64,000 nucleotides of DNA from Parcubacteria group bacterium (GCA_943354045.1 CALRBF010000003.1:4703-68702), one strand, 5' to 3'; positions 7,564 through 32,973 are shown, numbered from the stretch's first letter. Made by a program: numbers and translations. Notes: a model not told the origin generated them from the sequence alone.

Positions 7564-8313
7564 TTATTTAAACAAAGATTTAATTTTATCCCAAAATGTG
7601 ATATTTTTTTTCAAGGCATCATTAAGATAATAACGCTTCTCTACTTTTAAATCTGACTCCCTAAGATGATATATCAATGGCTGTCCAGTTGGAATTTCTA
7701 AATCAATAATTTTTTTATCTGAAATATGTTCAATAAATTTTACTAATGCTCTTAAACTATTCCCATGTGCTGAGATAATAATTCTTTTTCCTGACAATAT
7801 AGCTGGCTTTAATTCTTGTTCCCAATAAGGGGAAACTCTATCCAAAGTATCCTTAAGAGATTCTCCAATAGGTAATTTATCCTTAGGAATACTCTTATAC
7901 CTATCATCAGAGGCTGGATATCGTGAATCATATTCTGATAATAGCGGAGGTCTAATAGCAAAAGCTCTTCTCCACACCTTTACCTGATATTCTCCAAACT
8001 CTTCTATCGCATCAGTTTTATCTTTTCCTTGTAATCCCCCATAATGTCTCTCATTAAGATGCCAATTTTTAATAACTGGTATCCATGTCATATGAGCTGA
8101 TTCTAGCGCATATTGTAATGTATCAACAGCACGATCTAGAACAGAAGTATAAGCAATATCAAACTCAAAACCATTCTGCTTTAAAGCAATTCCCAATGTT
8201 TTAGCTTCTTGTATACCTTTAGCAGATAATTCTATATCAGTCCAGCCAGTAAATTTATCTAGCTGATTCCATACACTTTCGCCATGGCGAATAAGCACCA
8301 ATGTATAGGCCAT
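7564..8313 (-). CDS. gpmA: 2,3-bisphosphoglycerate-dependent phosphoglycerate mutase
   Basis: 249 aa. LVLIRHGESVWNQLDKFTGWTD catalytic His motif plus the conserved GpmA C-terminal region. Confidence 0.85.
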   Translation of the reverse strand: MAYTLVLIRHGESVWNQLDKFTGWTDIELSAKGIQEAKTLGIALKQNGFEFDIAYTSVLDRAVDTLQYALESAHMTWIPVIKNWHLNERHYGGLQGKDKTDAIEEFGEYQVKVWRRAFAIRPPLLSEYDSRYPASDDRYKSIPKDKLPIGESLKDTLDRVSPYWEQELKPAILSGKRIIISAHGNSLRALVKFIEHISDKKIIDLEIPTGQPLIYHLRESDLKVEKRYYLNDALKKNITFWDKIKSLFK

Positions 8314-9461: not shown

Positions 9462-10322
9462 TTATTCTTGAAATCCATATTCTAATGCTGCTTTCCCAAG
9501 AATATATACCTTTTCTCGCTTTGATGTTCTCGCTCTTTTTGTTAACACATCATAATGATTTTGTTCAATTTTACCGAGAATCGCCTCATACATACGACTT
9601 GCCATAATAACGGCAAATCTTCCTTTTCTATTCAGATATTGGAGTCCCTTATCTGATTTCCGATATAATTCACGAGTATGCTGTATTTGATATTTGAGAC
9701 AATTCACAAATTCTTGTGTTACCTGATGCTTCTGAATCATATCTTCTGTAACTTTATACTTTGATAAATCATACTGGGGTATATATATTCTACCACGCTG
9801 ATCATAATCCTCACCGATATCTCGAATGAAATTTGTCATTTGCATCGCCTCTCCAAGTAAAGAGGCATATTCCAAAGCCTTATCATCCGTATATCCAATA
9901 ATATATGTCATCATAAGTCCAACTACTGAGGCCGAGCCATACATATATTGCTGCAAATCTTGATATGTTTTATATTCTTTAATTGTGATATCCTGTTTCA
10001 TAGCAGCAAGAAAATTTAGACTATATTGATAGGGAATATGATAGGTATGGAATACTTTTGAGGTCAAATTTAGTACCGGGTATTCTGTTATACCCCCATG
10101 ATACGCCCTTTCCCAAACTTCTTGCCAATTATTTAACTCAGCTAAAATATCTGCATCTGAACTATCTTTAGTATTGTCTACAATCTCATCTGGAATACGA
10201 AAAAAGCTATACAAAGCATACGTTGCTTGTCTCAAATCAGTAGGTAAAAATCGAGTGGCAAAATAGTAACTCGTACCAAACTGCTTAGTAATAGCCTCTA
10301 TTGACTTAGTGTATTTGTCCAT
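9462..10322 (-). CDS. Squalene/phytoene synthase family (trans-isoprenyl diphosphate synthase, head-to-head)
   Basis: 286 aa. Two Asp-rich motifs: FRIPDEIVD (DxxxD) and RDIGEDYDQRGRIYIP (matches RDVGED...GR.YLP). Confidence 0.8.
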   Translation of the reverse strand: MDKYTKSIEAITKQFGTSYYFATRFLPTDLRQATYALYSFFRIPDEIVDNTKDSSDADILAELNNWQEVWERAYHGGITEYPVLNLTSKVFHTYHIPYQYSLNFLAAMKQDITIKEYKTYQDLQQYMYGSASVVGLMMTYIIGYTDDKALEYASLLGEAMQMTNFIRDIGEDYDQRGRIYIPQYDLSKYKVTEDMIQKHQVTQEFVNCLKYQIQHTRELYRKSDKGLQYLNRKGRFAVIMASRMYEAILGKIEQNHYDVLTKRARTSKREKVYILGKAALEYGFQE

Positions 10323-18907: not shown

Positions 18908-18998
18908 ATATTATTAGTATATCATATTCAATAATTATTGCCCATATAGTTTAGACAGGCTCAAAAGTATATGTTATACTAAATTATATATATATGCC

Positions 18999-21989
18999 AT
19001 GGCTTCAATAAATAAACAATCAAATCGTCAAAGTTTTCGAGAAAAACTCCAGACTAATACAACTGCGGGATCAAATTTAATATTAATTCGAAAGAAAGAA
19101 GAGGAGCTTGCCACACAAAGAAAGGCAAACTCTCTTGGAATTGCCTATATTAATCTTAAATTTATTCCTATTAATCCTGATGCTCTTAAAATATTAACAC
19201 AAGAACAAGCCAAGAAGGCTGGAATGATTATATTTCAGCGCTCAGGAATTCATCTCAAAATTGCTATTGCAGACATTAATAATCCCCTTACCAAAACAAT
19301 TCTTCAACAATTTTATCAAAAAGAATATCAGATAGAATTATATTTGGTATCAAAATATAGTCTCGAGAAAGGATATGCTTCTTATGATTTTCTTCAAGAT
19401 AGAGGGCAAATTGTAAAAGATAGACTACTTATTCCTGAGCATATGATAAAAGATGCTCAGAGTGATATTGTGAAACTTGAAGATTTTGCTGACAAAATTA
19501 ATTCTGTAGAAATTTCAGAATTAATTCAAATGATTTGTGCGGGAGCCATATCTTCTTTTGCTAGTGATATACATATCGAACCAAAAGCATCTCTTACTCG
19601 CCTACGCTATCGTATTGATGGAGTTTTACAGGATATTTTAAATTTTGATTCTAATTTATATAAATCTCTCATATCACGTATCAAAAATCTTGCGTCTTTG
19701 GTACTCAATGTTAAAAGCACCTCACAAGATGGAAGATTTAGTATTGTAATTATTGATAAAGATGGTGTTAATAAACAAACTATTGATGTAAGAGTTTCTA
19801 TACTTCCCAGCAAAACAGGTGAAATTATTGTAATGAGATTATTGAATACTGAAATCCATAATTTGGATATTCATTCATTTGGGATTAGACCTTCTTTTTT
19901 AGATATTATTATAAGAAATCTTGAAAAATCTCAAGGAATGATTATGTTATCAGGACCAACAGGATCAGGAAAAACTACAAGCCTTTATTCTTTCCTTAAT
20001 TATATCAATAAAAGTGAAACGAATATTATTACTCTTGAAGATCCAATTGAATATCGATTACCAAATATTAATCAAACTCAAGTTGATACAAAAAAAGGCT
20101 ATACGTTTGCTAATGGCTTAAAGGCAATAGTGAGACAAGATCCAGATGTGATTATGATTGGAGAAATTAGAGATAATGATACTGCCAATATTGCGATTAA
20201 TGCCTCTATTACAGGACATCTCGTATTCTCCACTATTCACACCAATGATTCTGTAGGTATTGTGACCAGATTACAAGAATTTGATGTAGCCCCTCCTCTC
20301 ATCATATCTTCTATGAATTTATTTATTGCTCAAAGATTATTAAGGCGATTATGTGAATGTAAAGAAGAATATATTCCTTCAGAAGAGGAAATAACAAGTA
20401 TTAATCATGCTCTTGCTATTATTTCACCTAAATCCAATATCACAATACCTAAAGAAGTAACCAAATTATATAGAGCTAAGGGATGTCCCAAATGTTATGG
20501 GCTTGGATATAAAGGACGACTTGCTATTTATGAATTATTTGAAGCTCGCGATAATATTAAAGAGTTAATTAGTGATAATACTCCTGAGTTTAAAATATTT
20601 CGTAAAGCTATAGAAAATGGAATGGTAACCTTATTTCAAGATGGTATTCTTCATGCTATTGATGGGGAAACTTCATTTGAAGAAGTAGTGACTGTAGCTG
20701 GAGATACCAATTATATTGAAGAATTATATGAATCAACTCTCACATCAGCCCTATCTCGCGGAATTCATATAAAAGCGAATAGTAATCCTCCTCAAATTAG
20801 TCAATTATCTGAATCTATGTCAATTAATGATCAGTTAACTGCTATCACTACAGCCGCTCTCTCAAAAAGAGCTACCGATATTCACCTTGAGCCTGATGAA
20901 GGGAATTTAATTATACGATTTCGTATTGATGGAGTACTCTATGAAGAAGCCCGTATTCCAAAATCTCTTTATCCTCAAATTCTAACTCAAATCAAAATAT
21001 TCTCAGGATTAGCTCTTGATATCAGTAATACCATTCAGGAGGGAAGATTCACTATCTTTGCTGAAAAGAATGTTGATGTGAGGGTTTCTATTATTCCGGG
21101 AGGATATGGACAAACTATTGTACTTCGTATACTAAGATCAGATATAGCAAAACTTGGTCTCAAAGATCTTGGAATGGATGAGTATAATATTGAACTTCTC
21201 AAAGCTCAACTCAAAGCTACTACTGGACTTATATTGGTAACAGGTCCTACTAGCGCTGGAAAATCTACAACCCTGTATGCAACTCTTAATACCCTCAATC
21301 AACCTGGAGTAAAAATCATTACCATTGAAGATCCAATTGAATATAAATTGTCAGGAATTCTCCAAACGAGTATTAATGAAGAAACCGGATATAATTTCCC
21401 CAATGCTATCAGAGCTTTACTTAGACAAAACCCTAATATTGTTCTTATTGGAGAAATTAGGGACAATGAGACCGCCAAAGTAGCCATGCAAACAGCTGCA
21501 ACTGGACATCTTTTGCTATCTACTCTCCATACCAATGATGCTGCTTCTGCAATTTTGAGATTATATGATTTGGGTATTGGTCTTTCTGAAATTGCTGCTT
21601 TTGTAAATGTGACTATTGCGCAGCGAATTATTCGCAAACTTGACCCCAATACTGCTACTACTATCACATTATCTCCTGAACAAAAGGATATTATTCGATC
21701 AAAATTACCAGAACATTATCATAATCTTATTCCTGACACCATATTACAAGCTAATTCAAGCCCTGATCATCCTGATGGATATCTTGGTATTATGGCTATA
21801 TTTGAAGTGCTTGTTATTAGCCCAACTATGAAAGAAATTATTATTAGTCAAGCATCCACTGCCCGTATTAAAGATTTAGCTATTGAAGAGGGAATGACAA
21901 CCTTGGAAGTTTCTGGTATTCTAAAAGTATTAGATCATACCACCGATTTTGCTGAAATCGAAAGAGTATTAGGTGTCACAATATTATAA
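18999..21989 (+). CDS. Tandem-fused double GspE/PilB-type secretion/type IV pilus assembly ATPase
   Basis: 996 aa. Two complete ATPase modules. Walker A motifs GPTGSGKTT and GPTSAGKST. Asp boxes IMIGEIRD and VLIGEIRD. His boxes STIHTNDS and STLHTNDA. Each module has its own N1E-like domain (ASDIHIEP / ATDIHLEP). Only the first carries a tetracysteine zinc motif (CxC...CxxC). A GSPII_E N-terminal domain sits at the start. Confidence 0.85.
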   Translation: MASINKQSNRQSFREKLQTNTTAGSNLILIRKKEEELATQRKANSLGIAYINLKFIPINPDALKILTQEQAKKAGMIIFQRSGIHLKIAIADINNPLTKTILQQFYQKEYQIELYLVSKYSLEKGYASYDFLQDRGQIVKDRLLIPEHMIKDAQSDIVKLEDFADKINSVEISELIQMICAGAISSFASDIHIEPKASLTRLRYRIDGVLQDILNFDSNLYKSLISRIKNLASLVLNVKSTSQDGRFSIVIIDKDGVNKQTIDVRVSILPSKTGEIIVMRLLNTEIHNLDIHSFGIRPSFLDIIIRNLEKSQGMIMLSGPTGSGKTTSLYSFLNYINKSETNIITLEDPIEYRLPNINQTQVDTKKGYTFANGLKAIVRQDPDVIMIGEIRDNDTANIAINASITGHLVFSTIHTNDSVGIVTRLQEFDVAPPLIISSMNLFIAQRLLRRLCECKEEYIPSEEEITSINHALAIISPKSNITIPKEVTKLYRAKGCPKCYGLGYKGRLAIYELFEARDNIKELISDNTPEFKIFRKAIENGMVTLFQDGILHAIDGETSFEEVVTVAGDTNYIEELYESTLTSALSRGIHIKANSNPPQISQLSESMSINDQLTAITTAALSKRATDIHLEPDEGNLIIRFRIDGVLYEEARIPKSLYPQILTQIKIFSGLALDISNTIQEGRFTIFAEKNVDVRVSIIPGGYGQTIVLRILRSDIAKLGLKDLGMDEYNIELLKAQLKATTGLILVTGPTSAGKSTTLYATLNTLNQPGVKIITIEDPIEYKLSGILQTSINEETGYNFPNAIRALLRQNPNIVLIGEIRDNETAKVAMQTAATGHLLLSTLHTNDAASAILRLYDLGIGLSEIAAFVNVTIAQRIIRKLDPNTATTITLSPEQKDIIRSKLPEHYHNLIPDTILQANSSPDHPDGYLGIMAIFEVLVISPTMKEIIISQASTARIKDLAIEEGMTTLEVSGILKVLDHTTDFAEIERVLGVTIL

Positions 21990-27566: not shown

Positions 27567-28007
27567 ATGCCCTCCCCATTCCGAATCCGTGAACGCCTTC
27601 GTTTACTCCTCCCCCCAACTCTGGATGATATTCAGAAAATGGTAGAAGAAGAGATGGAGCCAGAGCTTCAGCCACTCGAAATTCCCGAGGCCGAAGCACC
27701 CCCCATTCCAGGGAATCTCAATACCCAGCAATTTCCCCAAAAGAAGTTTGTAGCTGGAGTAGAAGCTCTACTCCCTGAGATCTTGGAGGAATCCAAGAAG
27801 TATGGGGGGGTGGTTCAGATTTTCGTGGCACTCACCCTGCTAGAAACAGTCGAGGAGACTGAAGCAAAATTCTTTTTCCTGGAGGAGCAGGCCCAGGGAA
27901 TTGAGCCTATTATTTTATTATGGGCTCAAGCTTACCAAAACAAAAATTACATGTTGCCACCTCTAACGGCAACAGTGCACTGGGGTTTTACCCCCATCAT
28001 CTGGTGA
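27567..28007 (+). other. GC/C-rich ~0.5 kb transcription unit of unknown nature: either an acidic Pro/Glu-rich protein (~147 aa from ATG 27567) or a structured non-coding RNA
   Basis: Composition clearly departs from the flanking AT-rich DNA. The track ORF starts at a TTG coinciding with the -35 box, so its N-terminus is spurious. The predicted protein is low-complexity (EEEMEPELQPLEIPEAEAPPIPG). Multiple short GC hairpins are present. A strong terminator follows. Confidence 0.3.
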
Positions 28008-28027
28008 TCAAGCCTCCACTCATACCC

Positions 28028-28060
28028 AAGCCCCGCAATACGCGGGGCTTTTTTTCTTTT
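28028..28060 (+). terminator. Rho-independent terminator
   Basis: Perfect 9-bp GC-rich stem (aagccccgc / gcggggctt), 5-nt loop, then tttttt. Confidence 0.8.
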
Positions 28061-28112
28061 GACAAATAGTATAGTCTCTGTTAATATATTTTGTGATGTC
28101 CTGCTATTTACA

Positions 28113-28409
28113 ATGACAACAAAATTGACTTTCGCTCTTGAAGACTGGGATACCATACTGAATCATTTGGAAAAATATGCAATACCCAAACTCCCTATCA
28201 CTCAATTAAGTGGTATTGAGAAAAGAAAAGCTCGGCAGAATATATTCAGTCTAGGGCGTCCTCATACAAGAGATCTCATAAGACCAACTATTAATGAGAT
28301 TCAAAGAGAATGTGATAAGAACAGAAAAAACTTTCAACCCGAAGCTACGGTATTCGTACATGATAATATTGTAAAACTTATCAATCGAATACCAGCCACA
28401 TCCTCATGA
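28113..28409 (+). CDS. Hypothetical protein (~98 aa from the internal ATG; track ORF starts at 28059)
   Basis: Open frame with lysine/arginine-rich C-terminal half, no recognisable family. Located between the terminator and tRNA-Thr. Confidence 0.3.
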   Translation: MTTKLTFALEDWDTILNHLEKYAIPKLPITQLSGIEKRKARQNIFSLGRPHTRDLIRPTINEIQRECDKNRKNFQPEATVFVHDNIVKLINRIPATSS

Positions 28410-28500
28410 GGAAATATTTTAATCATATTAATTCGGCATCACCATGATGTCGAATTTTTCTTCTTGCTCTTGCAGCCATTTTAGACTATACTATGCTTAT

Positions 28501-28575
28501 GCCAATGTAGCTTAGTTCTGGTAGAGCAATGCATTCGTAACGCATAGGTCGTGGGTTCGATCCCCACCATTGGCT
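28501..28575 (+). tRNA. tRNA-Thr (anticodon CGT); CCA is encoded immediately 3' (28576..28578)
   Basis: Manual fold. Acceptor stem GCCAATG/CATTGGC, 7 bp. D-arm GCTT/AGAGC with GG in the loop. Anticodon arm with loop TTCGTAA (anticodon CGT, one A-C mismatch at the stem end). 5-nt variable loop. T-arm GTGGG-TTCGATC-CCCAC. Discriminator T. Confidence 0.75.
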
Positions 28576-28597
28576 CCATTATTTATATGAAAAAATT

Positions 28598-30040
28598 ATG
28601 TCTTATTCTATACCTAATCATATTATTTTAATATTGAATACACTCGAAAAAGCGGGGTATGAAGCTTTTATTGTTGGGGGTAGTGTTCGTGATCTTGTGA
28701 GAGGTTCAAATCCCGTAGATTGGGATATCACTACTAATGCTCTTCCCAATCAAATTCAAGAATTATTTCCTGACTCTGTTTATGAGAATAGTTTTGGAAC
28801 TGTAGGGGTCAAGTATCGCCGTCCGGATGATACGACAGAGATTATTGAAGTTACCACTTATCGCAAAGAATCTCAATATACCGATAAGAGGCATCCTGAA
28901 CAAATTGAATTCGTCTCTGAACTCTCTCTTGACCTTGCCCGCCGAGACTTTACCGTCAATGCCCTTGCTATGAATGCCAGATTAGAAATACAAGATTTCT
29001 TTGGGGGGTTATCTGACTTAGAAAAAGGTATTATTCGTACTGTGGGTGAGCCAAAAGACAGATTTGGGGAAGATGCATTGAGACTAATGCGAGCTGTGAG
29101 ATTTGCAGTGCAATTAGATTTCACCATTGAACCTAAAACCTTGCAAGCTATTCAAGATTTAGCTCCTAATCTCGAACATATTGCGCAGGAGCGAATTCGA
29201 GATGAGCTCACCAAAATGATGCTAACCCCGCGAGCAATTAATGGCTATATATTATTAAGAGATACTCATCTATTACCTTTCATAATGCCCGAATTATTAG
29301 AAGGTATAGGAGTAGAACAAAATGGACATCATATTTATGATGTTTGGGAACATCTTTTGAGGACTATGCAACATGCTTGTGATATGTCTTGGAGCTTTGA
29401 TTTGAGAATGGCAGGATTATTACATGATATTGCAAAACCTCGTACCAAGGAAGGTGTGGGGAAAACCTGTACTTTTCATAATCATGAAGTTGTAGGTGCT
29501 AGTATGGCTTATGAAATTCTCAATAGACTTCATTATCCTAAAAAATTTGCAGCCCGAATTTCAAAATTAGTGCGTTATCATATGTTTTATTATGATACCA
29601 ATGAAGTGACTGAATCCTCTATTCGTAAGCTTATTCGTAATGTAGGAGTTGAGAATATCAAGGACTTGATTAAGCTAAGAGAATGTGACCGTATTGGTTC
29701 TGGAACTCCTAAGGCTCGCCCCTATCGCCTACGGCATTTTGAATATATGACAGAAAAAGTTATGTTAGATCCTATAGATTTATCTATGCTCAAAATAGAT
29801 GGAAATACTTTAATTAAAGAATTAAAAATTCCAGCAGGACCTATGATAGGTATGATTCTAAATGTTTTATTAGCAGAAATATTAGAGAATCCCAGTAAAA
29901 ACAATCTCGATTATCTTAAATCACAAGCTCAGATTCTGGCTACCCAAGACCTAAAGGACTTGAAGATAAAAGCTATCAATTTAATTGAAGAGAAACAAAG
30001 AGAACAAGATGAAACTATCCGCAAAAAGTTTTTTGTGTAG
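28598..30040 (+). CDS. cca: CCA-adding tRNA nucleotidyltransferase with C-terminal HD domain
   Basis: 480 aa. Pol-beta NTase head (GGSVRDLVRGSNPVDWDITT), tRNA-NT body, HD motif (LLHDIAKP). Confidence 0.85.
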   Translation: MSYSIPNHIILILNTLEKAGYEAFIVGGSVRDLVRGSNPVDWDITTNALPNQIQELFPDSVYENSFGTVGVKYRRPDDTTEIIEVTTYRKESQYTDKRHPEQIEFVSELSLDLARRDFTVNALAMNARLEIQDFFGGLSDLEKGIIRTVGEPKDRFGEDALRLMRAVRFAVQLDFTIEPKTLQAIQDLAPNLEHIAQERIRDELTKMMLTPRAINGYILLRDTHLLPFIMPELLEGIGVEQNGHHIYDVWEHLLRTMQHACDMSWSFDLRMAGLLHDIAKPRTKEGVGKTCTFHNHEVVGASMAYEILNRLHYPKKFAARISKLVRYHMFYYDTNEVTESSIRKLIRNVGVENIKDLIKLRECDRIGSGTPKARPYRLRHFEYMTEKVMLDPIDLSMLKIDGNTLIKELKIPAGPMIGMILNVLLAEILENPSKNNLDYLKSQAQILATQDLKDLKIKAINLIEEKQREQDETIRKKFFV

Positions 30041-30148
30041 GGATTTTATGTATGAAAAGACAATATAATAGATTGTCCAAAAAGTTATACAATGGTGGTT
30101 TTTGGTATTTTGTTACTGTGTGCGTAGATGATATGAAGTGTATATTTG

Positions 30149-30170
30149 TAGAGTCGGCGACCCCGCCGAC
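30149..30170. repeat. GC-rich palindrome tagagTCGGCGaccccGCCGAc inside the RAYT-like CDS (copy 1)
   Basis: 7-bp perfect stem GTCGGCG/CGCCGAC with a 4-nt loop. GC-rich in an AT-rich gene. The reading frame is maintained through it. Confidence 0.8.
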
Positions 30171-30429
30171 ATATATAGAAGATGTTTATAAATTTAAATT
30201 AAATAATATTGGCAATATTGTAGAAAGTACTTGGCTTGATATACCAAAGTATTATTCTAATATTACATTAGATAGATATGTATTGATGCCAAATCATTTT
30301 CATGGAATAATTGGTATAGACAAAAATTCATATTCTTTAGGTACTAGTAAAAAAGTTTCTTTGGGAGACATAATCTCTAGCTTTAAACAAATATCATTGA
30401 GGAATGTAAAAAAATACAATAATCCTAAT

Positions 30430-30451
30430 GTCGGCGAGGCCGCCGACTCTA
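30430..30451. repeat. Inverted copy of the same palindrome, GTCGGCGaggcCGCCGACtcta, inside the RAYT-like CDS (copy 2)
   Basis: Reverse complement of copy 1 including the tagag/ctcta flanks, differing only in the loop. Lies 260 bp downstream of copy 1. Confidence 0.8.
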
Positions 30452-30613
30452 CGAAAAATATAATGAATAAATATAATACTTTTTGGCAAAAATCTTTCTA
30501 TGATCATATCATTCGTAATAATACTGATTTACTAAGAATTCAAGAATATATTATGAATAATCCTATAAACTGGGAATGAGACGCTCTCAATCCCAATAAT
30601 CCCATACAAATAA

Positions 30614-30642
30614 TTGACAAATAAAATTCTGTGAACTATAAT
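30614..30642 (+). promoter_or_regulatory. Perfect consensus sigma70 promoter (TTGACA - 17 nt - TATAAT) upstream of the V/A-ATPase operon
   Basis: TTGACA at 30614..30619, 17-nt spacer, TATAAT at 30637..30642. Confidence 0.6.
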
Positions 30643-30663
30643 GAATTGTATTTATAAACACCT

Positions 30664-30930
30664 ATGAAAAAACTTGTTGAACTGATTGAAATTGAAAAGT
30701 CTTTTAATCATAATAAGAAATCTTTACAAAAAACCTATATTACCCAATCTCAAGATTATATTGCTCGAGCTAAAGAGAATATTGCAGTTCTTCAAAGAGA
30801 GATTCTGAACAAGAATCAGATTGTGAGTGAAAGATTAGCTTCTTATGAAAAACAGTCTAATGATTCTAATTCAACTGAAATTAAATTAGATGTTCAAAAA
30901 ATTAAAAAACTTATTTTAAGTCAATTATAA
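30664..30930 (+). CDS. Small coiled-coil protein, probable V/A-ATPase peripheral stalk subunit (G/H-like)
   Basis: 88 aa, helical and charged. First gene of the operon, which is the usual position of the G/H stalk subunit in ntp/atp V-type operons. Confidence 0.4.
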   Translation: MKKLVELIEIEKSFNHNKKSLQKTYITQSQDYIARAKENIAVLQREILNKNQIVSERLASYEKQSNDSNSTEIKLDVQKIKKLILSQL

Positions 30931-30936
30931 ATTTGT

Positions 30937-32973
30937 ATGGGAGTTAAAGCGGCTAAATTAATTCAAATCACTGTTCCAAATAATACTCAATTAGAATTAT
31001 TAGCCTATATTCAAAAGCATCAGGTTGGAGAAATTATAGAAAGAGTAGAAAGAACTCCTCTAACTAAAAAATATTTGCATAAACAGGAGGATTTATTAGA
31101 GAATTTAGATATTATCAATAAAGCTTTTGATGTTTATAAAACATATAATCAGCAGAAAAAATCTATTTTAACTAGTCTTATAGATAATCGATTTAGTATT
31201 ACTGAACCTATATTTGAGCATTATGATAAGAATCAAGATCTTATCATTGCCAAAGCCAAAGAAATTGTTGAAAAGGCTGAATTAAAAGATGATTTAACTA
31301 CTCGCCAAGAAATTCTACAAGATATTATTGCTAAATCAGAACCTCTCAAAGATATTGAGCTTAACATTTTTAAGCCCTATTCTTATATTGCTTTTATCCC
31401 CTTCTTGATTGATGAGTCTCGAGCACATTATCTGACAGATCAATTAGAGCATAGTCTCTCTCCTGTAGTTTTAGAATCTGTCAAAAAAGTTGGTACTGAT
31501 TATGTATATATTCTAGCCGTCCCCAAAAATCAGGCTAAAATTGCCCTGGATATAATTCAGAATCAAGCTACCCTGATTCAATTCTCAGCAGAAGTGAAAG
31601 GATCTTTTTATGATGTTTATCATAATAGTAAACAAGAGCTCAATGCCAATACTAAGAAAATTAATACATTAAATCGAGAGTTAAAAAAATCTCCCGTTAA
31701 AATGAAAGACTTAGCTATTTTAGTTGATGTATTAAACTCTCAATTAAATTTAATCTCTTATTTACACTCTTTTAATCCTGAGTCGGAGACTACTTCCTCA
31801 ATACAATTATGGGTAGATGCGGAAAAATTCAACTCAACCAAACAACCTATTTTAGGTATTTCAGAGGATATTACAATTGTAGAATTACCTTCTGATGCTG
31901 AGAATACTCCGATTATATTAAAAAATTTACCGATTATTAGACATTTTGAGACTGTGACCAAAATTATGGGCTATCCGCAAGCTGGTAAAATTGACCCGAC
32001 TTTGTCTATTGCTATATTCTTTACCTTTATGTTTGGATTAGCTTTATCTGAGGCTGGATATGCTTTAATCTTGATTGTTTTGACTGGGCTTGGTTTATTA
32101 AATCCTAGATTAAAATCAGGAATTCGAGATATCTTTGCGGTAGTATTTATTGCTTCTATCTCCACTTTGATTATAGGAGCTCTCTTTGGTAGTTGGTTTG
32201 GAATTACTCCAGATGCAGTTGACTATGCTACTGCCTCTCCTCATATGAAATTCTTGATTAGTATTGGACTGATCCCTTTCTTACAACAATTACAAATTAT
32301 CAACCCTATGGACAGTGTAATTGCCTTGATGGGATTCACTATTGTATTAGGTATTATTCATCTTTTATTTGGTTTGGTTCTCAATATTGTACAGGCTTTC
32401 AATCAAAAATCATTCTGGGATGCTAGCCTAGATTCTATTCTTTGGGCTTTGGCTTTAATCTTTGGAATATTCTTATTAGTGATTAACTTTGGATTATTAG
32501 GAGATGGTTTCAAACTTCTTATTGATCCTCTACTTTACTCCTATATTGCTTATGTTTTTGTGATGACATATCTACTAGGGCGAGAAATGAAGTCTATTTT
32601 TACTAAATTTGGTAAAGGAGCTTATGATGTTTTCTTTGGAGTTGTAGGATATTTGTCAGATATACTATCATACACTAGATTAGTAGCTCTGGGTCTTGCA
32701 ACCGGTATTATTGCTGGTGTAGTAGGAACCTTAGCTAATTTAGCTGGTGGTGGTTTGGTAGAAAAAGGGGGTGCCTGGCTCATTATTGGTTATATTATTA
32801 TGACTGTCATCTTTATTGCTGGAAATATATTTAATATTGCTTTGAATGTACTTGGTACTTATATTAATGTAGGTAGATTACATTTTGTAGAATTCTTTAG
32901 TAAATTCTTCCAATCCGGGGGGAAACCTTTACAAGTTGTCACAAGATCTCAAGAGTACAGTATTATTGAATAA
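30937..32973 (+). CDS. atpI: V/A-type ATPase subunit I (a-subunit, membrane stator)
   Basis: 678 aa. Soluble N-terminal half and polytopic C-terminal half with the conserved Arg-containing helix (SYTRLVALGLATG). Confidence 0.8.
   Translation: MGVKAAKLIQITVPNNTQLELLAYIQKHQVGEIIERVERTPLTKKYLHKQEDLLENLDIINKAFDVYKTYNQQKKSILTSLIDNRFSITEPIFEHYDKNQDLIIAKAKEIVEKAELKDDLTTRQEILQDIIAKSEPLKDIELNIFKPYSYIAFIPFLIDESRAHYLTDQLEHSLSPVVLESVKKVGTDYVYILAVPKNQAKIALDIIQNQATLIQFSAEVKGSFYDVYHNSKQELNANTKKINTLNRELKKSPVKMKDLAILVDVLNSQLNLISYLHSFNPESETTSSIQLWVDAEKFNSTKQPILGISEDITIVELPSDAENTPIILKNLPIIRHFETVTKIMGYPQAGKIDPTLSIAIFFTFMFGLALSEAGYALILIVLTGLGLLNPRLKSGIRDIFAVVFIASISTLIIGALFGSWFGITPDAVDYATASPHMKFLISIGLIPFLQQLQIINPMDSVIALMGFTIVLGIIHLLFGLVLNIVQAFNQKSFWDASLDSILWALALIFGIFLLVINFGLLGDGFKLLIDPLLYSYIAYVFVMTYLLGREMKSIFTKFGKGAYDVFFGVVGYLSDILSYTRLVALGLATGIIAGVVGTLANLAGGGLVEKGGAWLIIGYIIMTVIFIAGNIFNIALNVLGTYINVGRLHFVEFFSKFFQSGGKPLQVVTRSQEYSIIE

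What the first reader, a model, noticed from the sequence alone, without database searches (positions are those of the whole stretch)
30052..30579. Solitary RAYT/IS200-like HUH transposase gene carrying two inverted GC-rich palindromes within its own reading frame
The gene has the HUH motif and catalytic Tyr region of Y1 transposases but no tnpB and no flanking IS ends, and it sits 11 nt after cca in a housekeeping context, which is the domesticated RAYT pattern. Two copies of a 22-bp element (tagagTCGGCGnnnnCGCCGAc), in inverted orientation 260 bp apart, lie inside the CDS without breaking the frame. They bracket the HUH motif. REP hairpins recognised by RAYTs normally flank the gene. Here they are embedded in it, reminiscent of in-frame palindromic-element insertions (RPE-like) or of a self-targeting arrangement.
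Basis: seen in the sequence. Interest (0 to 1): 0.55.

Follow-up and report, generated by a model that had tools for sequence, protein, structure and literature searches.

The report
RAYT transposase gene carrying its own REPs
This is a domesticated REP-associated tyrosine transposase (RAYT) gene whose two target hairpins (REPs) sit in frame inside the gene, a published oddity of this RAYT subclass; what looks new is that the stretch carrying the two hairpins is inherited and swapped separately from the rest of the gene.

Summary
ORF 30052-30579 encodes a 175-aa HUH/Y1 protein with motifs NHFH, WQ and YIMNNP. It holds two copies of GTAG-A-GTCGGCG-N4-CGCCGAC, at 30148-30170 (+) and 30430-52 (-). 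They are in frame and lie in predicted loops.

These are genuine REPs. The same element is dispersed about 10 times per genome in related Paceibacteria MAGs, mostly between genes. The window has none outside the gene.

In-frame REPs inside tnpA_REP genes are already published as the hallmark of subclass 2.4 / RAYT Group 4 (Quentin et al. 2018). The core finding is therefore a new member of a known kind. It differs in using the beta1-alphaA and alphaC-beta4 loops and in having no extragenic flanking REPs.

The new part concerns the REP-to-REP stretch.
- It is 2.3-3.3% diverged between three lineages, against about 20% for neighbouring genes and 7-23% for the rest of the gene.
- At the same locus in other metagenomes a slightly longer cassette (30148-30483) is replaced by a cassette only 33% identical in protein, which carries a different REP type at the same two sites.

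So the REP-containing core behaves as an exchangeable specificity cassette. Whether the RAYT itself catalyses the exchange is not shown. The window copy also has a premature TGA.

The parts
30052..30579 (+). RAYT / tnpA_REP gene (175 aa), the last gene of the tRNA-Thr-cca unit. It is cut short by TGA relative to its orthologs.
   Evidence: ORF. Pfam Y1_Tnp E = 1.4e-3. NCBIfam REP_Tyr_transpos E = 2.4e-16. AF2 model pLDDT 82.9 with Foldseek hits to ISDra2/IS608 TnpA and to 4ER8. Profile hit to 4ER8, E = 4.9e-8.
30148..30170 (+). REP-A: GTAG foot 30148-51, spacer A, stem 30153-59 / 30164-70, loop ACCC. It encodes V33-T40 in the beta1-alphaA loop.
   Evidence: pLDDT is below 50 at residues 37-44.
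30430..30452 (-). REP-C: the same element on the minus strand. On the plus strand the foot reads CTAC at 30449-52, and the loop is GCCT on the minus strand. It encodes V127-T134 in the alphaC-beta4 loop.
   Evidence: pLDDT is below 50 at residues 127-129.
30148..30483 (+). REP-containing core cassette (aa 33-144: REP-A, alphaA, beta2, beta3 with HUH, the alphaC DNA-binding helix, REP-C and a linker). This is the segment with its own evolutionary history.
   Evidence: Segment divergences. Two-rate scan. Replacement in L129/L130.
30295..30303 (+). HUH motif H82-F83-H84 within MPNHFHGI.
   Evidence: H82 and H84 are invariant in 35 homologs.
30484..30516 (+). WQKSFYDHIIR, the counterpart of E. coli TnpA_REP W94-R104, which contacts the GTAG foot. 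Part of the conserved scaffold.
   Evidence: Alignment to 4ER8. Residue roles from PMC6006769 Fig. S11 and PMC8266576.
30547..30564 (+). YIMNNP, with the catalytic Tyr166.
   Evidence: Y166 and N170 are invariant and P171 is conserved in at least 90% of homologs. It aligns to the E. coli YIYINP motif.
30577..30579 (+). Premature TGA. Orthologs read TTA (Leu) here and continue for 11 more residues (LDxLNPxN...). The decayed tail can still be read downstream.
   Evidence: DNA alignments.

Best explanation
WHAT IS SHOWN. The gene is a domesticated REP-associated tyrosine transposase, TnpA_REP subclass 2.4 / RAYT Group 4. It is vertically inherited at the cca / V-ATPase junction of a Paceibacteria (Patescibacteria) lineage.

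Its two cognate REPs (GTAG foot plus a 7-bp G+C hairpin) do not flank the gene. They lie in frame in two surface loops, in inverted orientation with the feet pointing outward.

The same REP is a dispersed, mostly intergenic family in related genomes, where it often sits in BIME-like clusters with two other GTAG-REP types.

The stretch that carries the two REPs (aa 33-144) evolves as a separate unit. It is nearly identical among lineages whose flanking DNA is about 20% diverged. At the same locus in other populations it is replaced wholesale by a distant cassette that carries a different REP type at the same two sites.

WHAT IS INFERRED. By homology with E. coli TnpA_REP, the enzyme binds the folded REP on single-stranded DNA, then cuts and rejoins next to it. 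That activity spreads REPs.

The conserved scaffold (beta1, the WQ..H..R motif, the Tyr helix) would read the invariant GTAG foot and carry out the chemistry. The cassette holds the HUH strand and the alphaC helix, which would read the hairpin.

Placing the REPs inside the cassette locks each hairpin-reading module to the hairpin it reads, so that recombination moves both together. Whether the exchange is done by the RAYT at the GTAG feet or by ordinary homologous recombination in the conserved scaffold codons is open.
For: Identity of the protein:
- Motifs NHFH / WQ / YIMNNP match the subclass 2.4 signature NH[IFV]H / WQ / YIxNNP (Table 1 of PMC6006769).
- The predicted fold matches Y1 transposases and 4ER8.
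- dN/dS is 0.12-0.19.
- Synteny holds in L001-3, L021 and L129/130.

REP nature of the palindromes:
- The exact pattern GTAGAGTCGGCG-N4-YGCCGAC recurs 10-12 times per set of loci in two Paceibacteria MAGs. Most copies have no spanning ORF.
- A REP pair is present in JBIKVS01 but absent at the syntenic window site.

The arrangement is a known trait of the subclass: PMC6006769 states that REPs are inserted within tnpA_REP genes of subclass 2.4 without disrupting the frame. My own sample agrees. Perfect GTAG-tagged hairpins occur at 2.06/kb in 80 RAYT ORFs against 0.48/kb in other ORFs.

The REPs lie in loops: low pLDDT at residues 37-44 and 127-129.

The constraint is on the DNA, not the peptide. 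The stems are 100% identical between genes whose proteins are 54% identical. Other homologs carry other palindromes at the same sites.

The cassette has its own history:
- Interior divergence is 2.3% / 3.3%, against 12.5-22.9% in the RAYT 5' part and about 20% in cca and atpI. Fisher p = 3e-4 and 2.5e-8.
- An unsupervised scan puts the left edge at 30148, the first base of GTAG.
- L129 is 85-95% identical to L001 except between the REPs, where it drops to 43-63%.
- The P0006 N-terminus is 94% identical to P0001, but its core is 33% identical to P0001 and 81% to P0009.

The two sites are paired: a 69-nt perfect inverted repeat sits at the same two sites in P0016.

Structural logic: GTAG contacts come from beta1, W94-R104 and the C-terminus; stem contacts come from the alpha3 helix.
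Against: - The Pfam and NCBIfam scores are below the curated cut-offs (19.2 against 23; 59.9 against 80).
- No REP copy lies outside the gene in the 64-kb window, so dispersal in this very genome is inferred from a relative whose neighbouring genes are about 80% identical in DNA.
- The right edge of the cassette lies 30-50 nt beyond the REP-C foot, in the WQ-motif codons. That fits homologous recombination better than symmetric RAYT cleavage.
- Low divergence could in principle reflect nucleotide-level constraint rather than lateral spread.
- The structural assignment rests on a Group 2 enzyme that is only about 16% identical.
- The window allele has a premature stop and may be impaired.
- No activity data exist for any Group 4 RAYT.
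Confidence: 0.78

Rival explanations
1. Neutral hitch-hikers. The two REPs are ordinary products of REP proliferation that happened to land in tolerant loops of the nearest gene. They have no role, and the cassette pattern is a by-product of strain-level homologous recombination.
For: This is the published reading for subclass 2.4 and for intragenic REPs in general (PMC6006769; PMC3733652). The inserts lie in low-confidence loops. REPs also sit in frame in unrelated genes such as hsdS (L004 7895) and a 295-aa ORF. The right edge of the cassette falls in conserved codons, as expected if homology guides the exchange.
Against: The same two loops are occupied, in the same inverted orientation, in every clade member examined and by two different REP types. 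The arms can be perfect 69-nt inverted repeats that include the spacer sequence. The stems are invariant across genes whose proteins are 54% identical. In both the L129-L001 and the window-L021 comparison the left edge coincides with the GTAG foot.
Confidence: 0.3
2. Autoregulatory RNA or DNA hairpins. The in-frame REPs are kept because stable hairpins in the mRNA, or RAYT binding to its own gene, throttle expression of a potentially genotoxic nuclease.
For: The hairpins are stable. The single strand is predicted to pair REP-A with REP-C (-41.6 against -23.6 kcal/mol). Regulation of RAYT and IS200 transposase expression by hairpins has been proposed (PMC3733652 discussion). The gene has no promoter-like site of its own and is read through from cca.
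Against: There is no expression data and no Rfam family. Regulation alone does not explain the low divergence of the 255 nt between the hairpins or the allelic replacement.
Confidence: 0.2
3. Self-mobilising mini-element. The inverted REP pair makes the RAYT core a REPIN-like or IS-like cassette. The enzyme excises it and pastes it (homing) into other RAYT scaffolds.
For: On one strand the layout is foot-hairpin ... hairpin-foot, as at IS200/IS605 ends. The left boundary is at GTAG in two comparisons. The cassette is nearly identical across diverged lineages. The single strand folds in a REPIN-like way.
Against: The right boundary is not at the foot. No free or ectopic cassette copies were found in the loci held (tblastn). 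There are no viral or other vectors. In P_PACE2 the whole ORF was duplicated, not the cassette.
Confidence: 0.25
4. Decaying insertion sequence or chance palindromes.
For: The window copy carries a premature TGA. The Pfam score is sub-threshold.
Against: Synteny, dN/dS of 0.12-0.19, intact orthologs, no IS ends and no tnpB. The palindromes are far beyond chance and recur in relatives.
Confidence: 0.03

Closest known systems
TnpA_REP subclass 2.4 (Quentin, Siguier, Chandler & Fichant 2018, BMC Genomics 19:475) = RAYT Group 4 (Bertels et al. 2017)
   Same: Signature motifs NH[IFV]H / WQ / YIxNNP. Length about 190 aa. REPs with a 5' GTAG foot inserted in frame inside the tnpA_REP gene. Low copy number. 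Slow evolution relative to housekeeping genes. Scattered across phyla.
   Different: - The published insertions are 'generally between HuH and Y', in the beta3-alphaC loop, and occur in addition to flanking REPs. Here one REP lies upstream of HUH (beta1-alphaA loop), the other lies in the alphaC-beta4 loop, and no extragenic REP flanks the gene.
- The REP is short (7-bp stem, single foot), not 'long' or 'double foot'.
- The host is a Patescibacteria genome.
- The separate history and allelic replacement of the REP-containing core are not described in that paper.
E. coli REPtron (yafM/TnpA_REP with REP/BIME; PDB 4ER8)
   Same: HUH-Y1 fold. Conserved WQ..(W/Y)(E/D)H..R GTAG-binding motif. YIxxNP catalytic helix. 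An inverted REP pair associated with the gene. A single-copy domesticated gene.
   Different: About 16% identity. The E. coli REPs are extragenic, long and bulged, and present in hundreds of copies. Activity is demonstrated only for the E. coli, Stenotrophomonas and Marinomonas enzymes.
IS200/IS605 insertion sequences (IS608, ISDra2)
   Same: Y1 HUH transposase fold. Subterminal hairpins with a tetranucleotide guide or cleavage site on a single strand.
   Different: The Tyr motif is YIxxNP, not Y...Q. There are no element ends outside the gene, no tnpB and no multiple identical copies. The gene is syntenic across lineages.
In-frame palindromic insertions in other genes (Rickettsia RPEs; intragenic GTAG/CGTC REPs, Di Nocera et al. 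2013)
   Same: Short palindromic repeats inserted in frame in loops without destroying the host protein.
   Different: Here the host gene is the enzyme thought to mobilise the repeat. The insertions are paired, inverted and fixed in position, and they co-vary with the protein segment between them.

Membership tests
RAYT / TnpA_REP (HUH-Y1) | HUH motif and a single catalytic Tyr in a YxxxNP helix | tested here: met
   H82-F-H84 and Y166-IMNNP. The residues are invariant in 35 homologs and align to 4ER8.
RAYT / TnpA_REP (HUH-Y1) | Y1 transposase fold | tested here: met
   AF2 pLDDT 82.9. Foldseek hits 2XM3, 2VJV and 4ER8 at E of about 1e-5 to 1e-6, with 4ER8 TM 0.55 over 173 columns.
RAYT / TnpA_REP (HUH-Y1) | Passes the curated family HMM thresholds | tested here: not met
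   NCBIfam NF047646 scores 59.9 bits against a cut-off of 80 (E = 2.4e-16). Pfam PF01797 scores 19.2 against 23. These are significant E-values but below the curated cut-offs. The REP-encoded inserts break up the match.
RAYT / TnpA_REP (HUH-Y1) | Associated with a cognate GTAG-footed REP family dispersed in the genome | tested here: inconclusive
   The association is met: two copies lie in the gene. Dispersal is shown in close relatives (JBIKVS01, JAULZW01). No extra copy was found in the 64-kb window, and the rest of this genome was not available.
RAYT / TnpA_REP (HUH-Y1) | Single-copy, vertically inherited (domesticated) rather than multi-copy like an IS | tested here: met
   The same cca-RAYT-orf88-atpI context occurs in L001-3, L021, L129, L130 and the P0009 contig. 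Exception: P_PACE2 has two paralogs.
TnpA_REP subclass 2.4 / RAYT Group 4 | Motif signature NH[IFV]H, WQ, YIxNNP (Table 1 of PMC6006769) | tested here: met
   NHFH, WQ and YIMNNP in the window protein.
TnpA_REP subclass 2.4 / RAYT Group 4 | REP sequences inserted in frame within the tnpA_REP gene | tested here: met
   REP-A and REP-C are in frame. The same holds in about 55 of 80 sampled relatives.
TnpA_REP subclass 2.4 / RAYT Group 4 | REPs of the 'long canonical' or 'double foot' type | tested here: not met
   The window REP has a 7-bp stem and a single GTAG foot with a 1-nt spacer. Double-foot REPs are seen in many metagenomic relatives but not in this clade.
TnpA_REP subclass 2.4 / RAYT Group 4 | Assignment by the authors' MCL clusters or subclass HMM | not testable with these tools
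IS200/IS605 insertion sequence | Transposase flanked by LE/RE subterminal hairpins, multi-copy, Y...Q motif, often with tnpB | tested here: not met
   There are no hairpins or repeats outside the ORF and no tnpB. The Tyr motif is YIxxNP. The gene is single-copy and syntenic.
REPIN | Two inverted REPs separated by a short spacer, replicated as a unit in many copies | tested here: inconclusive
   The inverted pair is present and is predicted to pair in single-stranded DNA. However, the spacer is 255 nt of coding sequence, and no second copy of the unit was found in the loci held.

The most novel reading that the evidence does not exclude
The internalised inverted REP pair turns the hairpin-reading core of the RAYT (HUH strand plus alphaC helix) into a REPIN-like cassette. 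The enzyme itself, cutting at the GTAG feet, copies this cassette between RAYT scaffolds within and between genomes. One event then switches both the REP specificity of the enzyme and the master copies of the REP. This would be a concrete mechanism for RAYT-REP co-evolution and for the birth of new REP families.
Probability: 0.25. Interest if true: 0.75.

Novelty: new variant of a known kind. Interest (0 to 1): 0.5.

Why it matters
How REPs and their RAYTs stay matched, and how new REP families arise, are open questions in bacterial genome biology. In-gene REPs of subclass 2.4 have been noted but treated as tolerated insertions.

Two observations here point the other way. In this lineage the REP-containing core has its own evolutionary history. 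And at one locus there are two alleles with different cores and matching different REPs.

That gives a natural experiment. Swapping cassettes between otherwise near-identical scaffolds should swap REP specificity. This is directly testable in vitro with the cleavage/strand-transfer assay already established for other TnpA_REP enzymes.

The finding also extends REP/RAYT systems, including BIME-like REP clusters, to Patescibacteria genomes.

Tried and rejected
- Chance palindromes were rejected by shuffles and by their recurrence in relatives.
- Peptide-level conservation was rejected. Homologs carry different palindromes, read in different frames, at the same loops.
- A known RNA family was rejected. 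The Rfam E-value scan of 28000-32000 finds only tRNA-Thr.
- Intrinsic terminators were rejected. There is no T-tract after either REP, and the two true terminators lie elsewhere.
- A viral origin or vector was rejected. The REP pattern is absent from IMG/VR, which holds only one distant RAYT relative.
- A search for other GTAG-tagged hairpins or other REP types in the window found nothing convincing ([timed out], 37, 69).
- A look-up of P0009 DNA returned gene order but no sequence.
- A test of whether the two P_PACE2 paralogs show the cassette pattern did not show it. There the similarity covers the whole ORF from ATG to stop.
- A literature search for RAYT mosaicism or cassette exchange found no report in the held library.

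Full report
OBSERVATION

The ORF at 30052-30579 (+, 175 aa) starts 11 nt after the stop of a CCA-adding enzyme gene. It is followed by an 88-aa ORF and a V-type ATPase operon.

Two exact TCGGCG-N4-CGCCGA palindromes lie at 30154-30169 and 30431-30446. At up to 2 mismatches the window holds 4 matches against 0.15 expected. The repeated unit is longer than reported. The inverted arms are 30145-30172 and 30428-30455, 28 nt and 89% complementary, with the differences mainly in the loop.

Each unit is GTAG, then A, then a 7-bp stem GTCGGCG/CGCCGAC, with a 4-nt loop. Each is stable as DNA at -9.4 to -9.5 kcal/mol, z = -4 to -5.8. Apart from two T-tailed terminators, they are the only strong G+C hairpins in 64 kb of 34%-GC DNA.

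Both units are in frame, encoding V33-T40 and V127-T134. They bracket the HUH codons.

WHAT THE GENE IS

The protein gives weak but specific matches to Pfam Y1_Tnp (E = 1.4e-3) and to NCBIfam REP-associated tyrosine transposase (E = 2.4e-16). Both are below the curated cut-offs.

There are 132 homologs. Among the 35 aligned, H82, H84, W145, Q146, H152, R155, Y166 and N170 are invariant, and P171 is conserved in at least 90%.

An AlphaFold model (pLDDT 82.9) matches ISDra2/IS608 TnpA and the E. coli TnpA_REP-REP complex 4ER8. A profile of the family hits 4ER8 at E = 4.9e-8.

The motifs NHFH / WQ / YIMNNP equal the signature that Quentin et al. 2018 give for TnpA_REP subclass 2.4, which corresponds to RAYT Group 4 of Bertels et al..

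The gene is syntenic, in the order cca, RAYT, orf88, atpI. This holds in ENA contigs (P0001, 94% identical), in a GTDB Paceibacteria MAG (JBIKVS01, 89%), and in contigs carrying P0006 and P0009.

dN/dS is 0.12-0.19. The gene is therefore a domesticated, vertically inherited RAYT, not an IS.

WHAT THE PALINDROMES ARE

They have the architecture of REPs, a 5' GTAG foot plus a hairpin (PMC2817692, PMC3733652).

An exact-pattern scan of one genome per GTDB species found 44 loci. The high-GC hits are single chance matches. Low-GC Patescibacteria MAGs carry many copies: 12 in the JBIKVS01 loci and 10 in the JAULZW01 loci.

Outside RAYT genes most copies have no spanning ORF. A few sit in frame in other genes, namely hsdS, a 295-aa ORF and a 332-aa ORF.

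They typically occur just downstream of genes, in tandem BIME-like clusters with two other GTAG-footed hairpin types:
- type 2: GTAGGGGCGAC-N6-GTCGCC
- type 3: GTAGCGGAGGG-TTTAT-CCCTCC

One such pair in JBIKVS01 lies in a 1.7-kb insertion that is absent from the syntenic site of the window.

This is a dispersed REP family, although the window itself holds only the two in-gene copies.

ARE THE SEGMENTS INSERTIONS?

Yes. In the protein alignment both peptides fall in hypervariable indel sites. In the model they fall in the only internal low-confidence segments, residues 37-44 and 127-129.

Close homologs carry arrays of full and half REPs at the second site.

In 80 metagenomic relatives (27-40% identity, locus GC 31-67%), perfect GTAG/CTAC-tagged hairpins occur at 2.06 per kb of RAYT ORF, against 0.48 per kb in other ORFs. 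Their stems differ between loci and are read in different frames. What is conserved is the DNA structure, not the peptide.

THIS IS ALREADY KNOWN IN OUTLINE

Quentin et al. [quoted passage not shown] Di Nocera et al. 2013 describe in-frame REPs in other genes.

The headline of the finding is thus a new member of a known kind. It has three particularities.
- One REP lies upstream of HUH. Only 3 of 98 hairpins in my family sample fall in that interval.
- The other lies in the alphaC-beta4 loop.
- No extragenic REP flanks the gene.

WHAT APPEARS NEW

(i) Every member of this clade has one REP in + orientation at the first site and one or more in - orientation at the second. In the 40%-identical P0016 the two sites carry a perfect 69-nt inverted repeat that includes the spacer between two hairpins. 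The two sites are therefore a paired structure. Across the family, 19 of 80 genes have an exact inverted repeat of at least 14 nt bracketing the HUH codons, against 0 in random controls.

(ii) Divergence by segment, for window vs L001 and window vs L021:

| Segment | vs L001 | vs L021 |
|---|---|---|
| cca | 20.6% | 22.5% |
| RAYT 5' part | 12.5% | 22.9% |
| REP-to-REP interior | 2.3% | 3.3% |
| RAYT 3' part | 7.3% | 13.7% |
| atpI | about 20% | about 19% |

Fisher tests of the interior against the RAYT flanks give p = 3e-4 and 2.5e-8. An unsupervised two-rate scan puts the left edge at 30148, the first base of GTAG, for L021. It puts the right edge at about 30503. Whole-gene dS is 0.20-0.31, against 0.5-2.0 for the neighbours.

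(iii) At the same locus, L129 and L130 are 85-95% identical to L001 in DNA, except from the GTAG of the first REP to about 35 nt past the second REP. There identity drops to 43-63%. In that stretch they carry type-3 REPs at both sites and a core only 33% identical to P0001 but 81% identical to P0009. The N-terminus stays 94% identical to P0001.

The unit exchanged is aa 33-144 (30148-30483, 112 codons).

MECHANISTIC READING (INFERRED)

In E. coli TnpA_REP the GTAG foot is contacted by beta1, by W94-R104 and by the C-terminus. The hairpin stem and bulge are contacted by helix alpha3 residues K82, T85 and H86 (PMC8266576; PMC6006769 Figs S7 and S11).

These map as follows onto the window protein.
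- The foot-binding elements, beta1 and W145-R155, lie in the conserved scaffold.
- The hairpin-binding helix (residues 104-122) and the HUH strand lie in the cassette.

The invariant GTAG would therefore be read by the invariant part, and the variable hairpin by the exchangeable part. The exchangeable part carries two copies of the hairpin it reads.

This gives a rationale for keeping the REPs inside the gene. The specificity module and its substrate stay linked, and the master copies are protected because deleting them would disrupt the gene.

How the exchange happens is open. The left edge is at the foot, but the right edge is in the conserved WQ codons. Homologous recombination or gene conversion in the scaffold is therefore at least as likely as RAYT cleavage at both feet. 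The single strand is predicted to pair the two REPs in a REPIN-like stem. No ectopic cassette copies or vectors were found.

CAVEATS

- All related sequences are metagenomic, though independently assembled.
- Dispersal in the window's own genome is inferred from relatives.
- Low divergence could be nucleotide-level constraint rather than transfer.
- The structural mapping relies on a distant homolog.
- The window allele has TGA where four orthologs have TTA, so it lacks the conserved 11-residue tail. It may be impaired or deregulated. In E. coli a 13-residue C-terminal deletion raises activity.

VERDICT

The phenomenon is already described for TnpA_REP subclass 2.4.

This instance is a variant. 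Both REPs are internal, they use different loops, the REP is short, and the host is a Patescibacteria genome. It also yields an apparently unreported observation worth following up: the REP-containing core is a separately inherited, swappable cassette.

Noticed in passing
window 30577-30621: The RAYT ends at TGA, where orthologs L001, L021, L129 and L130 read TTA and continue for 11 residues (LDxLNPxNxxK). The tail is still recognisable after the stop but has a 1-nt indel. This looks like a recent nonsense mutation that removes a tail conserved across the family.
   Followed up: partly
window 30614-30642: A perfect sigma-70 consensus (TTGACA-17-TATAAT, 12 of 12) lies just after the RAYT and before orf88 and the V-ATPase operon. 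It is conserved in L001 and L129. The RAYT has no comparable promoter of its own and probably rides on the tRNA-Thr-cca transcript.
   Followed up: partly
window 28501-28578: A tRNA-Thr (CGT) gene lies immediately upstream of the CCA-adding enzyme gene. Terminator-like hairpins sit at 28028-28050 and 28430-28456.
   Followed up: no
L013, L015, L020, L036, L040, L042, L044, L048 (e.g. L048 6241-6296): Related Paceibacteria genomes hold BIME-like tandem clusters of three different GTAG-footed hairpin types, spaced by about 10 nt and usually just downstream of genes. REP systems with several families therefore exist in Patescibacteria genomes.
   Followed up: partly
L004 4945-13862 (GCA_032117235.1): A RAYT paralog (P0002) sits inside a type I restriction-modification operon, between an hsdS-linked ORF and hsdR. 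In-frame REPs are present in hsdS (7895-7917) and in the 295-aa ORF (9490-9512). A second paralog (P0003) in the same genome is similar exactly from ATG to stop and nowhere beyond.
   Followed up: partly
L133 3187-3255 and 3491-3559: A 69-nt, 100% complementary inverted repeat lies entirely inside a RAYT ORF. Each arm encodes two REP hairpins plus a spacer, and both arms are in frame.
   Followed up: partly
L048 4610-6359 vs window 18926-19014: JBIKVS01 has an extra 472-aa gene with a pilin-like N-terminus, followed by a REP pair. The syntenic site in the window has only about 90 nt.
   Followed up: no
L007, L012, L029, L032, L033 (CAJXTH01, GC 0.44): The same type-1 REP occurs in a higher-GC uncultured bacterium within a larger composite repeat (...GATGACAGnn-REP-AAGGAnGGGGTCGGGAAAC-N-GTTTCCC...). 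No RAYT was seen in the loci held.
   Followed up: no
L049-L128: In many distant relatives a single 'double-foot' hairpin (GTAGGGGC....GCCCCTAC) just after the HUH strand is translated in different frames in different genes. This gives recurrent peptides such as VGAGLKPAPT, GRGTARRAPT and VGTGRDLSL, which could be mistaken for a conserved protein motif.
   Followed up: partly
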